64,000 bases of DNA from a virus. Of this stretch, positions 28,096 to 41,909 are shown piece by piece (positions within the stretch are counted from its first letter, which is position 1; every line of letters starts with the position of its first letter). The stretch lies in IMG/VR virus record IMGVR_UViG_3300045988_122518; one strand, given 5' to 3'. The notes beneath the pieces were generated by a model that ran no database searches, was not told the DNA's origin, and worked only from the letters and a program-made list of their open reading frames with translations. The position numbers and the translations under genes were made by a program.

Positions 28096-29124
28096 TTAAA
28101 TCCAAGCTACAGGAACAGGTGTCCAAGTACCCGTGGTAGAAGTTCTATATTTAAAAGTGCCAGTTTTGGCAGTTGTATCTATCCATACTAAAGGCGCGGT
28201 CCCCGAGGCAGGTTGTGTAGATCCAATATAAATAGAATAATCAGTAGTAGTTCCAACCGTAGGAGGAGTAGCATTATCAACATATTTTTTAGTAGCTAAT
28301 TCCATATCAGCCGTAGGAACATAACTACTATCCATCGTAATTCTACCATCAGCAGTCATTATATTGGATTTATTTTTATATACTGCTTGTGTTACATCGT
28401 CAGGAACAGTTGCTAATTTATCGTCAATTTGTTTAATAGCATTACTTACTTTATTATTAATAGTTACTTCAGCGTTATCTATTGCTTCCTAAATCTAAGC
28501 AACTTTTTCATCTACATTAATAGCAGCAGCTCCTTCAATACCCATAACCGCAAGATAATCATCAGCTTCACTAGTCCATCCATTTAAAGTAATAACTTTT
28601 CCTTTAATAGTATAATGATCTGTTTCTTTTAACATAATACCATTATAATATAAAGTTAAAGCACTGCTATCATCAAAATCGAAAGGAATTGTAAATGTAT
28701 TCTAGTTTGCTTTTGCTGTAAACACATATTTATTTACAGGTTTATTCACTATATCTGCCGGACAAGTAACATTATATTCAATTCCATTAATATTTATTGT
28801 ACCAATTTTACTTCCAGTATCATCGATATTTTCATAAGATACTTCTGATAATTCTGCTAAATTACGTCCATTTTCATCATAAGTAGCATAATCCGCGTGA
28901 TCAGTATATAAATTTAATCTTTTGTCTTTAGTATCAATATAAAATTTATGAGTATCTTCTGTGAAATAAGCATATCCTTCTGTAATAGGAGTACTATCTA
29001 CTGTTGTAAATAAAGTTTTTCCTGAACCCAAGGCAGGAAAAGGAATTTTACCATTAACTACTTCAGCATTATCATAGGAAACTAAATTATTTGAGTCTCC
29101 TTTTAAAATTTTAAATAGAGCCAT
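28096..29124 (-). CDS. tail-fibre-like protein, 343 aa, three in-frame TAG (28702, 28495, 28489)
   Basis: RBS AAAGGAG then ATG 29124. The N-terminal motif MALFKILKGDSNNL ... resembles those of the genes at 41313 and 41909. Frame traced codon by codon through tracked ORFs 28702-29124 and 28096-28359. Confidence 0.55.
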
Positions 29125-29196
29125 CGATCTTCAATAACTCCTTTCTACAAATTAATGGTATAGAATTAATTAATAATTCTATACCATTTAGTTTAT

Positions 29197-29817
29197 TTAT
29201 TCAAGAACAATCCAATAAACATCCAACCCATTACCACCAACAAATCCTTCCAAACGAGCTAAACGTTCCCAAATTTGTTGGACTACTTGGCTATCATCAA
29301 TTACATAATAATCTTCTTCTTTTACAATAGAATCTAAATTAAGTTTAGAATAAACCTAAAGACTTGCTGGCAATGTGTTTAAATTATATAATAAATTATT
29401 AGAATCTTTTTCTATTTTGTAAAAAGTTATCATATAATTTAAATTACCAGATTTTTTAGTAGCGCTATAATTTAAAACCCAAGGAAAAATAATTTTATCT
29501 TTATGAGTTAAAGTATCATAATATGGAACTGGATAAATGCGCTTTTCATTATCAGCATTAATATACTGAATAATACACATCATATTAGTTAAATCCATAG
29601 TATCGAAATATCTATCTATTTCAAAATAAATAATTTCAGCAGCGTGATCACCTTCAACTGTAATATAATTATTTTCATTGCTAATAGTCCTTGAATTTAA
29701 ATTTACCTAAACTAATTTTTCATCTTCTGGAGCTGGAAGAGCTGGATATTTTACTGGAAAATTTTCATCTTGTATTTGATGTAAAACGCTATAATAATCA
29801 GTTGGATTAGTTATCAT
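29197..29817 (-). CDS. structural protein, 206 aa, paralogous to the N-terminal region of the 29823-31508 gene; two in-frame TAG
   Basis: AEIIYFEIDRYFDTMDL parallels AETIYFQIDRYFDLQDL in the upstream gene; frame traced from ATG 29817 to TAA 29197-29199. Confidence 0.5.
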
Positions 29818-29822
29818 TTATC

Positions 29823-39592: not shown

Positions 39593-39651
39593 AAAAACAT
39601 TCTTCTATATAAAATAGAAAAAATTATATTTATTATTAAATAGTATTGCCC

Positions 39652-41313
39652 TTAGAATGTTCCCCACTCTAACTCAAAATTAACTTTAGCATCATCAGTC
39701 ACAGTCGCCGCAGAAACATTAACCTTTAGGCTATTACTAGTGAAAACAAGCGGTTTGCCTTCAAGATCAGCACCAGCAACTTTAAGGTTAGGAATTAAAG
39801 TATCAGTACCATTTACCGTATAATCTGCATTAGCAATTTCTTGATGAGTATTTTTTACAGTAAAAGTTTTTTTAGTAGATTTAATTACATGCCCTTGAGC
39901 ATCAATTTCAGTTGGCTCATTAATAGTAATAGTTTGTTCATCAGCATAGGATTGAGAAACTGGAGTATTTACAGTTAAAGTATTACTATGTTTAATAGTA
40001 ACAACTTTAGAATTAGTAGGTTGACCTTTTGAATCTGTTAAAACTTTTGTTTCTAAAACAATACCACTTTCACCATTAAGAGCATAATCTAAAAGTTTTT
40101 TGGTAGAACCAAGTTTAATGATAAAACCAGCAGTACTATTATCATTGGCTCCTTCAACTTCAGTAACAGGGTCATCAGCAGAAGGAACATAGGTCCAATT
40201 AATAGTACCAGTAATAGCCCCATTAACTTCTTCACCAGAAGCGATAATTAAATCACCAGGACGTAAATAATGACCATTCCAAAGTGTATCTTCGGCTCCA
40301 GTATAAATAAAGGTATTACCTTCAGTAATTTCAGTAATATCAGAATTATCATAGGCAATAGCTCCATCTTTAACTTGGAATCCGCCACGGAATACCATAG
40401 CATTAATAGTTCTAAGTTGATTATCAATATCTTGTTTGCTATAAACAGGAAGAGTTAAAACACCATCTTTAAATTTGTAGCCACCAGTCTTGCCTTCTAA
40501 AGCAATTTCTGGATCAATATCAGCAGATAAAGTTGTACCATTACCAGCTCCTTCAACGCCAGGACCACTAATAGAAGCAGTAAAACCAGTACCAGTACCG
40601 TGATTAACTACATCAATACTATCAACAGCTTTATTTACACTTAATGTATAGTTTCCTGTAGAAGTTTCAGCAATATTAACATTACTACCAGCAATAATAT
40701 TAAAATTACCTGCATCAGTATCAGTATTTTTCAAATTAACATTTAAAGTTTTTTCATTTAAAGAAGAGCTTAATTGATAATTGATTCCTTTTAAACTCAG
40801 TTTAACAGTGTCTACACCTTTATCATCAACAGCAGGAACTGCTTCAATTTGGATATAATCGCTACCTATAATATCATAAGTCTCAGTAATAATATTACCA
40901 CTACTATCAGCAATAGTATTAGTTATAGAAACTCCATTAGGTTTTTCAGGATTACTATTTACTGATACATTACTATTTTTTTTACTAGTATCTAAAACAG
41001 TATCAGTATTAGTTTGAATCCAACCTTTACCATTATTAATACATAAGATATTTTTATCTTTTACATAATAAAATTCGCCAGCAGTATTTTGGTTAAAACT
41101 TTGAGGTAAACCTGCGGTAGTATCAACTACGTTAATACCTTGATTTACAGGAACACAATTATTTTCATCTACACCATAATAAAGACGACTTGGTTTTTTA
41201 TAATCATCAGCGGATTTATTATCATTAATTACTAAATAAAACGCACCAGGTTTATATCTACCTGCCACCTTTTCAAATTCGGCTTGAGAGCCTTTTAAAA
41301 ATTTAACGTTCAA
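39652..41313 (-). CDS. tail-fibre-like protein, 553 aa, TTG start, no in-frame TAG
   Basis: Uninterrupted tracked ORF; RBS AAAGGAG then TTG; N-terminal motif MNVKFLKGSQAEFEK ... YLV is shared with the 41909 and 29124 genes; Thr/Asn/Gly-rich beta repeats. Confidence 0.65.
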   Translation of the reverse strand: MNVKFLKGSQAEFEKVAGRYKPGAFYLVINDNKSADDYKKPSRLYYGVDENNCVPVNQGINVVDTTAGLPQSFNQNTAGEFYYVKDKNILCINNGKGWIQTNTDTVLDTSKKNSNVSVNSNPEKPNGVSITNTIADSSGNIITETYDIIGSDYIQIEAVPAVDDKGVDTVKLSLKGINYQLSSSLNEKTLNVNLKNTDTDAGNFNIIAGSNVNIAETSTGNYTLSVNKAVDSIDVVNHGTGTGFTASISGPGVEGAGNGTTLSADIDPEIALEGKTGGYKFKDGVLTLPVYSKQDIDNQLRTINAMVFRGGFQVKDGAIAYDNSDITEITEGNTFIYTGAEDTLWNGHYLRPGDLIIASGEEVNGAITGTINWTYVPSADDPVTEVEGANDNSTAGFIIKLGSTKKLLDYALNGESGIVLETKVLTDSKGQPTNSKVVTIKHSNTLTVNTPVSQSYADEQTITINEPTEIDAQGHVIKSTKKTFTVKNTHQEIANADYTVNGTDTLIPNLKVAGADLEGKPLVFTSNSLKVNVSAATVTDDAKVNFELEWGTF

Positions 41314-41327
41314 TCTTTTTCACTCCT

Positions 41328-41909
41328 TTAAATATCAGACCAAGAAACAGTTTGTTCAACTGCTTCAACACGAGTTACCAAATTATCAGGGCTCTTATCT
41401 ACTAAATATTTATTAGCTATATTAATTGTTTCAATATCTCCCTAAGTTAATGTTCCTATTGGCATATCAATCCATGTACCAGCGTCGGTAAGAATATGTT
41501 TTCCTTTAGTTTCATGTAGAGAAACAGGAACTAAACCCGGGACTGTGCCCTTAAAAACAGGAGCTAATTTAGCTAAATTTTCTTCTGTAGATAATTTTTC
41601 AACAATAGAATTAATTAAAGTCTCATTATTTTCTAAACCCTAATTAACCCATTTTTTCTATTCTCCATTATAAATTAAAACTTGATTTGTCTTAACTTCA
41701 TTAAGAACAATATCACTTAAATCGCTTAACTTACCTGCGGAACTAATTCCACCGCAAATTAGACGACTACCTAAATAAAGTTCTCCAGAAGAATCATTTT
41801 CCCCATAAATAAAATATAAAGTATCATTGTCTCTTTTCGTCCCTAAATTTTCAAAAGCGGTTTTAGAACCTCTGACAAATTTTACATATTTATTTAATGT
41901 ATTAGGCAA
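41328..41909 (-). CDS. tail-fibre N-terminal-domain paralogue (194 aa, TTG start, two in-frame TAG)
   Basis: RBS AAAGGAG then TTG 41909; MPNTLNKYVKFVRGSKTAFENLG ... DTLYF motif; the length is divisible by 3 to TAA 41328. Confidence 0.45.

What the first reader, a model, noticed from the sequence alone, without database searches (positions are those of the whole stretch)
28096..41909. Three tail-fibre-like paralogues share an N-terminal motif; the largest is entirely TAG-free
The genes starting at 41909 (MPNTLNKYVKFVRGSKTAF), 41313 (MNVKFLKGSQAEF) and 29124 (MALFKILKGDSNNL) share a conserved N-terminal anchoring motif but diverge afterwards, which suggests alternative or multiple receptor-binding fibres. 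The 553-aa gene 39652-41313 has no in-frame TAG, although neighbouring late genes average roughly one per 60-70 codons. That points to recent acquisition from a non-recoded donor or selection for early or suppressor-independent expression.
Basis: seen in the sequence. Interest (0 to 1): 0.55.

Follow-up and report, generated by a model that had tools for sequence, protein, structure and literature searches.

The report
TAG-poor tail-fibre allele in recoded phage
In a large gut phage that reads the stop codon TAG as glutamine, one 553-residue tail-fibre gene has no TAG, but this is a quirk of one allele lineage at a frequently swapped fibre locus, not a sign of recent import or special expression.

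Summary
The window is the late, minus-strand module of a TAG->Gln recoded phage whose relatives lie on contigs up to ~197 kb. gB (39652-41313, TTG start, 553 aa) has 15 Gln codons, all CAA, and no TAG. In neighbouring genes TAG is ~37% of Gln-type codons. A plain binomial gives P~1e-3. With gene-to-gene spread, P=0.004-0.016, which is borderline over 12 testable genes. gB is syntenic in 19 relatives. 13 of them carry 1-3 in-frame TAGs, always where the window has CAA. The seven TAG-free sequences form one sub-clade. Five other gB allele lineages (26-44% identical), three of them on closely related backbones, have ordinary TAG use (0.21-0.43). gB codon usage is native and its GC3 is the lowest of the set. 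It follows TAG-containing gA by 14 nt in a hairpin-bounded unit. So recent import and conserved suppressor-independent expression are not supported. An older import across genetic codes remains possible. Conserved N-termini with variable distal parts fit docking modules on a multi-fibre baseplate.

The parts
41328..41909 (-). gA: 193-aa small fibre-like protein. TTG start behind AAAGGAG. 3 in-frame TAG. N-terminal motif VKFVRGSKTAFENL...LYFIY...LYLG, then a GLVPV...G...L.D.G.W element.
   Evidence: Pfam PF24243 'phage tail tip domain' at residues 10-35 scores 17.2 bits, below the 23.7 cutoff; gA-type N-termini of relatives reach E 3.7e-6. The gB-family HMM hits gA at E~1e-5.
39652..41313 (-). 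gB: 553-aa fibre-like protein. TTG start behind AAAGGAG, which overlaps the gA stop. 0 TAG, 15 CAA, 0 CAG. Conserved N-terminal ~108 aa, variable middle, conserved last 13 aa (AKVNFELEWGTF).
   Evidence: AF2 monomer model is all-beta with pLDDT 61. The family has 1216 50%-identity clusters; the ten sampled clusters carry no name beyond 'hypothetical protein'.
39934..41142 (-). Span holding the five gB Gln codons (CAA here) that are TAG in some relatives: 41140-41142 (Q58), 41014-41016 (Q100), 40417-40419 (Q299), 40375-40377 (Q313), 39934-39936 (Q460).
41959..41990 (-). 14-bp-stem hairpin in the gU1-gA spacer; upstream boundary of the gA-gB unit.
   Evidence: spacer MFE -24.4 kcal/mol, z -4.3
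39562..39593 (-). Intrinsic-terminator-like hairpin (12-bp stem plus U8) between gB and gC. The spacer is nearly invariant in 19 relatives. The stem is kept with different loops in L020 and L022.
31815..39533 (-). gC: 2572-aa giant fibre/adhesin-like protein with 30 TAG. N-terminal motif IRFRPVQGPEEKIKAYPQTDGYFYVATDTGRVYLDT. Weak BspA-type LRR_5 match at residues 2384-2445. Mosaic C-terminus.
28096..29124 (-). gG: 342-aa fibre-like protein just upstream of the holin, with 3 TAG. The motif core is at residues ~42-67 (EGYAYFTEDTHKFYIDT). FKILKG lies at residues 4-9.
27651..28061 (-). gH: holin; marks the end of the fibre module.
   Evidence: phrog_13712, E 7e-38
41998..44271 (-). gU1: 757-aa fibrous protein upstream of gA, with 10 TAG; backbone gene used as comparator.
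44632..46938 (-). gU3: baseplate-hub-like protein, with 8 TAG; anchors the module to the baseplate region.
   Evidence: tblastn: Enterocloster phage PMBT24 'baseplate hub protein'; phAss-1 28%; MT835469 35%

Best explanation
The region is the host-range part of the tail module of a large TAG->Gln recoded phage. It encodes at least four fibre-like proteins (gA, gB, gC, gG). Their short conserved N-termini probably dock them to the baseplate or to each other. Their distal parts are exchanged by recombination among related phages. gB is one such exchangeable gene, inside a hairpin-bounded gA-gB unit with conserved edges. Its lack of TAG has no functional meaning. At Gln sites CAA, CAG and TAG interconvert almost neutrally (CAG<->TAG is one transition). 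The allele lineage in this window started with few TAGs, about 1-2 of 16 at the inferred root. One sub-clade, which includes the window, drifted to zero while sister lineages gained TAGs. Shown: the recoding, the synteny, the TAGs in orthologues, normal TAG use in other alleles, the mosaic structure and the native composition. Inferred: neutrality of the interchange, the docking role of the N-termini and the receptor-binding role of the distal parts.
For: TAG=Gln: every TAG in gB orthologues aligns with CAA or CAG, and across ten genes the alternative codons at TAG columns are overwhelmingly CAA/CAG. 13 of 19 orthologues have 1-3 TAG. The seven TAG-free sequences are one sub-clade; column 464 changes once and the other four columns change 2-5 times, so there is flux in both directions. 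Other gB alleles: L020 3/14, L022 5/21, L025 4/13, L024 6/14, L027 5/17 TAG. L025 and L022 share the window's backbone: gU3 95% and gU2 97% in L022; ~90% nt identity from gU1 into the start of gB in L025. Their gB is only 36-40% identical. gC reshuffles independently: L001 has gB 98% and gC 70%; L016 has gB 82% and gC 92%. Overdispersion-aware P=0.004-0.016 over 12 testable genes. Codon usage is ordinary and GC3 is lowest. Published precedent: in three related TAG-recoded phages, 11 orthologous ORFs, including a tail-fibre gene and the holin, carry TAG in some genomes but not others (PMC10607447, Table 2).
Against: Across the near clade gB is consistently TAG-poor: 23 of 290 Gln-type codons (0.079), against 0.19-0.42 in the nine sizeable neighbours. 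It has no fixed TAG column (0 of 16), against about 15% in neighbours. That level resembles the early strand (0.12). These 20 sequences share ancestry, so this is essentially one observation. Even so, P~0.01 is not comfortably explained by chance.
Confidence: 0.65

Rival explanations
1. Older import across genetic codes. The ancestor of this allele lineage was acquired by recombination from a standard-code or TAG-poor relative, arrived TAG-free, and is now gaining TAGs through CAG->TAG transitions.
For: gB is a recombination hot-spot. This allele has no fixed TAG column and only 5 mostly minority polymorphic ones (4 at 15-25%, one at 45%), while neighbours have ~15% fixed. Other alleles at the locus have normal TAG use. 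The gB family is large (1216 clusters). One homologue, L023, lies on a contig with 0 TAG of 20 Gln codons, equal CAA and CAG in the homologue itself, and TGA stops, so it probably uses the standard code. Borges et al. report that code 11, 15 and 4 genomes coexist within single phage clades.
Against: No candidate donor was found: nothing between 44% and 80% identity in 5.8e9 proteins or in deposited phages. Codon usage and GC3 are fully native and CAG is absent. Midpoint-rooted parsimony puts 1-2 TAGs at the root and a loss on the window's branch, not a TAG-free root. The TAG-free state also covers the N-terminal 108 codons, which are the more conserved, backbone-like part. Statistical support is borderline.
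Confidence: 0.2
2. Selection keeps gB TAG-poor so that it can be translated without, before, or more efficiently than suppression allows.
For: The near-clade TAG fraction of 0.079 resembles the early strand (0.12) and not the late strand (~0.37). Gene-specific stop-codon avoidance has a precedent: the integrases of Garnet and Topaz phages.
Against: 13 of 19 orthologues need suppression for a full-length product. Five other alleles of the same gene at the same locus have normal TAG use. gB lies on the late strand, 14 nt after gA, which has two near-fixed TAG columns. It uses a TTG start, which established knowledge says usually initiates more weakly than ATG; that argues against tuning for high output.
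Confidence: 0.08
3. Artefact: the 553-codon TAG-free frame is not the real gene, or the region is misassembled.
For: None specific.
Against: The ORF, its TTG start and its RBS are conserved in 19 independent contigs. Homologous full-length proteins form 1216 clusters. Substitutions are codon-wise.
Confidence: 0.01

Closest known systems
TAG->Gln (code 15) recoded gut phages with recoded late genes (Borges et al., bioRxiv 10.1101/2021.08.26.457843; phAss-1 group, PMC10607447)
   Same: In-frame TAG is concentrated in structural and lysis genes, and the early strand is TAG-poor. TAG aligns with Gln codons. Presence or absence of TAG in a given orthologue varies among close relatives, as in Table 2 of PMC10607447. 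The baseplate gene gU3 is 28% identical to phAss-1 and 35% to MT835469.
   Different: Only a distant relative: no nucleotide match to any deposited phage. Related contigs reach 160-197 kb, against 136 kb for phAss-1. No suppressor tRNA lies in this window. Assignment to a named clade was not determined.
Gene families that avoid the recoded stop (integrases of Garnet/Topaz phages, Borges et al.)
   Same: A single gene stands out with few or no in-frame recoded stops relative to its Gln codons.
   Different: There the avoidance holds across the whole family and fits a function (expression under host code). Here it is confined to one allele lineage, and most orthologues still contain TAG.
Mosaic tail fibres with a conserved N-terminal anchor and an exchangeable distal part (own knowledge: T-even gp37/38, lambdoid stf, P2 H; branched receptor-binding assemblies of CBA120/G7C-type phages)
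   Same: Conserved N-termini with variable distal regions. Independent reshuffling of neighbouring fibre genes. Conserved intergenic edges.
   Different: No detectable sequence or fold relationship to those proteins. The comparison is by architecture only.
Pfam PF24243 Phage_tail_C ('phage tail tip domain', 26 residues)
   Same: Matches the gA-type motif VKFVRG...LYFIY. The best relative reaches E 3.7e-6; the window's gA scores 17.2 bits.
   Different: The window's gA is below the curated cutoff of 23.7 bits. gB, gC and gG are not hit.

Membership tests
TAG->Gln recoded phage | Reading TAG as sense restores long late-gene ORFs | tested here: met
   Minus-strand ORF coverage rises from 19.2 to 38.8 kb. 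TGA or TAA reassignment does not do this.
TAG->Gln recoded phage | TAG occupies positions that are Gln codons in orthologues | tested here: met
   All 5 gB TAG columns are CAA/CAG elsewhere. Alternative codons at TAG columns in ten genes are mainly CAA/CAG.
TAG->Gln recoded phage | Phage-encoded suppressor tRNA(CUA) | tested here: inconclusive
   No tRNA in this 64-kb window. The related contigs are ~160-197 kb and the rest of the genome was not available.
Recently acquired foreign gene (standard-code donor) | Atypical composition or codon usage | tested here: not met
   chi2/df is 1.51, mid-range. GC3 is 0.114, the lowest of the late genes. CAA only.
Recently acquired foreign gene (standard-code donor) | Absent or non-syntenic in close relatives | tested here: not met
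   Present at the same position with the same TTG start in 19 of 19 relatives.
Recently acquired foreign gene (standard-code donor) | Identifiable close homologue in a standard-code genome | tested here: not met
   The only probable standard-code homologue, L023, is 30% identical. Nothing was found in deposited phages.
Suppressor-independent (stop-avoiding) gene family | Family-wide avoidance of in-frame TAG relative to CAA+CAG | tested here: not met
   Other alleles show 0.21-0.43. 13 of 19 orthologues contain TAG. Only this allele lineage is low, at 0.079.
Mosaic tail fibre with N-terminal anchor | N-terminus more conserved than the distal part across alleles | tested here: met
   gB 54-59% vs 28-38%. 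gC 82-90% vs 50-53%.
Mosaic tail fibre with N-terminal anchor | Located in the tail/baseplate module | tested here: met
   Downstream of the baseplate-hub-like gU3 and upstream of the holin.
Mosaic tail fibre with N-terminal anchor | Trimeric fibrous fold; binds a host receptor | not testable with these tools
   The monomer AF2 model is all-beta but low confidence (pLDDT 61). Fold searches were uninformative.
Pfam PF24243 Phage_tail_C | Score above the curated cutoff | tested here: inconclusive
   Window gA scores 17.2 bits against a 23.7 cutoff. Four gA-type N-termini match, best E 3.7e-6. gB, gC and gG have no hit.
DGR target (Mtd-like fibre) | Template/variable repeat pair and Mtd_N domain | tested here: not met
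   No such direct repeats in the window. Mtd_N was not listed even at E<=1.
Invertible host-range segment (Mu G / P1 C type) | Long inverted repeats flanking fibre genes | tested here: not met
   Only local hairpins and AT-rich chance matches.

The most novel reading that the evidence does not exclude
The TAG-poor gB allele is a footprint of fibre-cassette exchange across a genetic-code boundary. A distal-fibre allele from a standard-code relative entered a TAG-recoded phage lineage and is now being 'ameliorated' to the alternative code, seen as TAG sites that are all still polymorphic and none fixed.
Probability: 0.15. Interest if true: 0.5.

Novelty: new member of a known kind. Interest (0 to 1): 0.22.

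Why it matters
This is mainly a calibration case. Within a recoded phage, a single TAG-free late gene is weak evidence for horizontal origin or special regulation. TAG, CAG and CAA interchange freely at Gln sites, and per-gene TAG content is overdispersed. The comparative data also define a swappable fibre locus with conserved edges, and a large, wholly unannotated protein family (at least 1,200 clusters at 50% identity). That family is probably a host-range determinant of large gut phages. If the cross-code import reading were true, it would be a first direct view of how genes adapt after moving between genetic codes.

Tried and rejected
1. Megablast of 22 kb against deposited phages: no match. 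tblastn of gG and gB against the same set: no match.
2. Pfam and PHROGs on all module proteins: almost nothing beyond the holin, a weak LRR_5 match and a weak PF24243 match.
3. PDB sequence search with gB and with an N-terminal motif profile: chance-level hits only.
4. AF2 monomer model of gB: pLDDT 61. Foldseek against PDB was meaningless. Against BFVD there was one uncharacterised gut-virus protein (E 7.5e-7, TM 0.14) plus weak partial hits to minor-tail and collagen-like proteins.
5. DGR hypothesis (prompted by the Mtd-like look of the motif): no template/variable repeats.
6. Inverton hypothesis: no long inverted repeats.
7. tRNA scan for a suppressor: none in the window.
8. sigma-70 promoter scan: only ~1.3-fold above shuffled background in this AT-rich DNA and not informative.
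9. PHROGs scan and source names for ten distant gB-family members: no function.
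Full report
**What the window is.** Under table 11 the minus strand of 23.5-64 kb is badly fragmented. Reading TAG as sense raises ORF coverage there from 19.2 to 38.8 kb. TGA or TAA reassignment does not have this effect. The plus-strand genes of 0-23.5 kb include a 1337-aa protein I read as a DNA polymerase from its N-terminal sequence (not tested) and a RecJ-like nuclease. They are TAG-poor: TAG is 12% of Gln-type codons. The minus-strand late genes use TAG for about 37% of Gln-type codons. This is the organisation described for TAG->Gln recoded gut phages (bioRxiv 10.1101/2021.08.26.457843; PMC10607447). 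No tRNA lies in the window.

**Gene map of the finding** (minus strand).
- gU1: 41998-44271, 757 aa.
- Hairpin: 41959-41990.
- gA: 41328-41909, TTG start, 193 aa, 3 TAG.
- gB: 39652-41313, starting 14 nt after gA, TTG start, 553 aa, 0 TAG.
- Terminator-like hairpin: 39562-39593.
- gC: 31815-39533, 2572 aa, 30 TAG.
- gD: 66 aa.
- gE and gF: paralogous at their N-termini.
- gG: 28096-29124, 342 aa, 3 TAG.
- gH: holin, 27651-28061 (phrog_13712).
- Upstream, gU3 resembles baseplate hub proteins of Enterocloster and Enterococcus myophages and of phAss-1.

**Checking the TAG observation.** gB has 15 Gln codons, all CAA. Other late genes carry 1 TAG per 57 codons, or 1 per 72-77 without the tape-measure gene. 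TAG is 36-38% of their Gln-type codons. The binomial P(0 of 15) is 8e-4 to 1.3e-3. Per-gene TAG fractions are overdispersed, ranging from 0.06 to 0.65. A fitted beta-binomial gives P=0.004-0.016. With 12 genes large enough to test, that is family-wise about 0.05-0.18. gB's codon usage outside Gln is ordinary (chi2/df 1.51, range 0.9-3.1). Its GC3 (0.114) is the lowest of the set. Its slightly higher overall GC is therefore not a third-position effect, and I attribute it to amino-acid composition.

**Comparative test.** Nineteen IMG/VR contigs (68-197 kb) carry a syntenic gB orthologue at 81-98% identity with the same TTG start. Only six of them are TAG-free: L001-L005 and L018, at 93-98% identity. 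The other thirteen have 1-3 in-frame TAGs. Every one of those TAGs falls in one of five columns where the window has CAA: Q58, Q100, Q299, Q313 and Q460. This confirms TAG=Gln. It also shows that most orthologues need suppression.

On a midpoint-rooted tree the TAG-free sequences form one sub-clade. Column 464 changes once (TAG inferred at the root). The other four columns change 2-5 times each between CAA, CAG and TAG. Across the clade gB is still TAG-poor: 23 of 290 Gln-type codons (0.079), against 0.19-0.42 in neighbours, with no fixed TAG column against about 15% fixed in neighbours. Because the sequences share ancestry, this is effectively a single observation.

**Other alleles at the same locus.** The protein database search returned a second tier of full-length homologues at 36-40% identity. 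Three of their contigs (L020, L022, L025) keep the same gene order, and two of those have an almost identical backbone. In L022, gU3 is 95% and gU2 97% identical, but gA is 53% and gB 36%. In L025, nucleotide identity averages ~90% from gU1 into the start of gB, is then lost, and resumes at about 75% in the last 13 codons of gB and the spacer. These alleles have ordinary TAG use:
- L020: 3 of 14.
- L022: 5 of 21.
- L025: 4 of 13.
- L024: 6 of 14.
- L027 (more distant): 5 of 17.

So TAG depletion belongs to one allele lineage. It is not a property of the gene's position or function. A sixth homologue, L023, comes from an NCBI metagenome assembly and is 30% identical. Its contig has 0 TAG among 20 Gln codons, the homologue itself uses CAA and CAG equally, and the genes end in TGA, so it probably uses the standard code. 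The family as a whole is large: 1216 clusters at 50% identity, 673 of them at E<=1e-30, nearly all full-length matches of 520-670 aa. The ten clusters sampled are unnamed or labelled 'hypothetical protein'.

**Mosaic structure.** Between alleles, gB is 54-59% identical over residues 1-108, 28-38% over the middle, and 54-77% over the last 13 residues. The gB-gC spacer with its terminator is nearly invariant in the near clade. Its stem is kept with different loops in L020 and L022. gC reshuffles independently of gB: L001 has gB 98% and gC 70%, while L016 has gB 82% and gC 92%. The last 370 residues of gC are 98% identical in L001 and 48% in L020 and L025. Hairpins sit at every unit boundary of the module. 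This is a typical host-range recombination hot-spot.

**The N-terminal motif.**
- gA and gB share a significant ~45-residue N-terminal similarity (z=8.9; HMM E~1e-5).
- gG does not match gA or gB significantly.
- gG residues 44-66 match the N-terminus of gC (z=7.0; HMM E 0.0024).
- The first 45 residues of L027, a clear gB homologue (E 1e-9), hit gG (E 0.009) and gC (E 0.03). The gC/gG profile hits L027 in return.

Together this is weak transitive evidence that all four N-termini are one motif family of the form h-K-F-x-[KR]-G ... G-x-[FY]-Y ... D ... [RK]-h-Y. Pfam PF24243 ('phage tail tip domain') matches the gA type only. The motif regions are conservation islands, which fits a docking role. 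That role is an inference.

**Conclusion.** The explanations offered for the TAG-free state do not hold. Recent import fails on synteny, native composition and TAGs in orthologues. Suppressor-independent or early expression fails because most orthologues and all other alleles contain TAG, and because gB lies behind TAG-containing gA on the late strand. The most economical account is neutral CAA/CAG/TAG flux in an allele lineage that happened to be TAG-poor. Published data show the same gene-by-gene variability among related recoded phages (PMC10607447). An older import of this allele from a standard-code relative cannot be excluded and is the most interesting residual possibility.

Noticed in passing
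window 26890-27606 (+): A response regulator with a receiver domain (Pfam E 2e-8) and a LytTR DNA-binding domain (E 4e-4, below the Pfam cutoff). It is encoded on the opposite strand inside the late region, next to the holin, and is followed by a bidirectional terminator at 27609-27652. A phage-borne AgrA/LytR-type regulator could tie lysis or late expression to a host signal.
   Followed up: partly
window 24587-25912 (-): The real compositional outlier of the late strand. 24587-25009 has GC 0.42. 25031-25912 has GC 0.378, more CAG than CAA, and the largest codon-usage deviation (chi2/df 3.08). It encodes a Gly/Asn/Cys-rich protein with a hydrophobic segment and no Pfam hit. It looks more foreign than gB does.
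   Followed up: partly
window 31815-39533 (-): gC, a 2572-aa giant fibre/adhesin-like protein with 30 TAGs and a weak BspA-type LRR match near the C-terminus. Its N-terminal 60 residues are 82-90% conserved across relatives. Residues 61-300 and the last 370 residues are swapped independently.
   Followed up: partly
window 7366-9114 (+) and 12869-16882 (+): TAG use is heterogeneous on the early strand. A RecJ-like exonuclease carries 6 in-frame TAGs, while the 1337-aa protein I read as a DNA polymerase (not tested) has 0 TAG among 50 Gln codons. That is much stronger avoidance than in gB.
   Followed up: partly
window 665-713, 3258-3306, 12830-12878 (+): A repeated ~49-nt element, TTGAyTTTT...TATAATATTTATATAA, upstream of early genes. 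It is probably a conserved early promoter.
   Followed up: no
window 41959-41990, 39562-39593, 31527-31575, 29149-29193, 27609-27652: A stable hairpin sits at every boundary between fibre-gene units (gU1|gA-gB|gC-gD|gE-gF|gG-gH). The one at 31527-31575 has a perfect 20-bp stem. These may act as terminators, as conserved recombination edges, or both.
   Followed up: partly
window 41909 and 41313 (-): Two consecutive genes, gA and gB, both start with TTG behind AAAGGAG. The gB TTG start is conserved in all 19 close relatives, but divergent gB alleles (L020, L022, L025) start with ATG.
   Followed up: partly
window 29197-31343 (-): gE (506 aa) and gF (206 aa) are paralogous at their N-termini (AETIYFQIDRYFD vs AEIIYFEIDRYFD; DNA repeats D2 and D4). 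gE has weak PKD/Ig-like matches.
   Followed up: no
window 31605-31805 (-): gD, a 66-aa protein with a helix-turn-helix-like stretch (TGIPATTLYRLIADY). It is conserved between the giant fibre gene and gE and is followed by a 260-nt spacer. A DNA-binding-like protein is unexpected inside a fibre cluster.
   Followed up: no
L023 (NCBI GCA_001684375.1, contig AUXO011953716.1): The most distant gB homologue (30% identical). It sits after a gA-like gene on a contig with no TAG among 20 Gln codons, and its genes end in TGA. So the gA-gB pair probably also exists in standard-code phages.
   Followed up: partly
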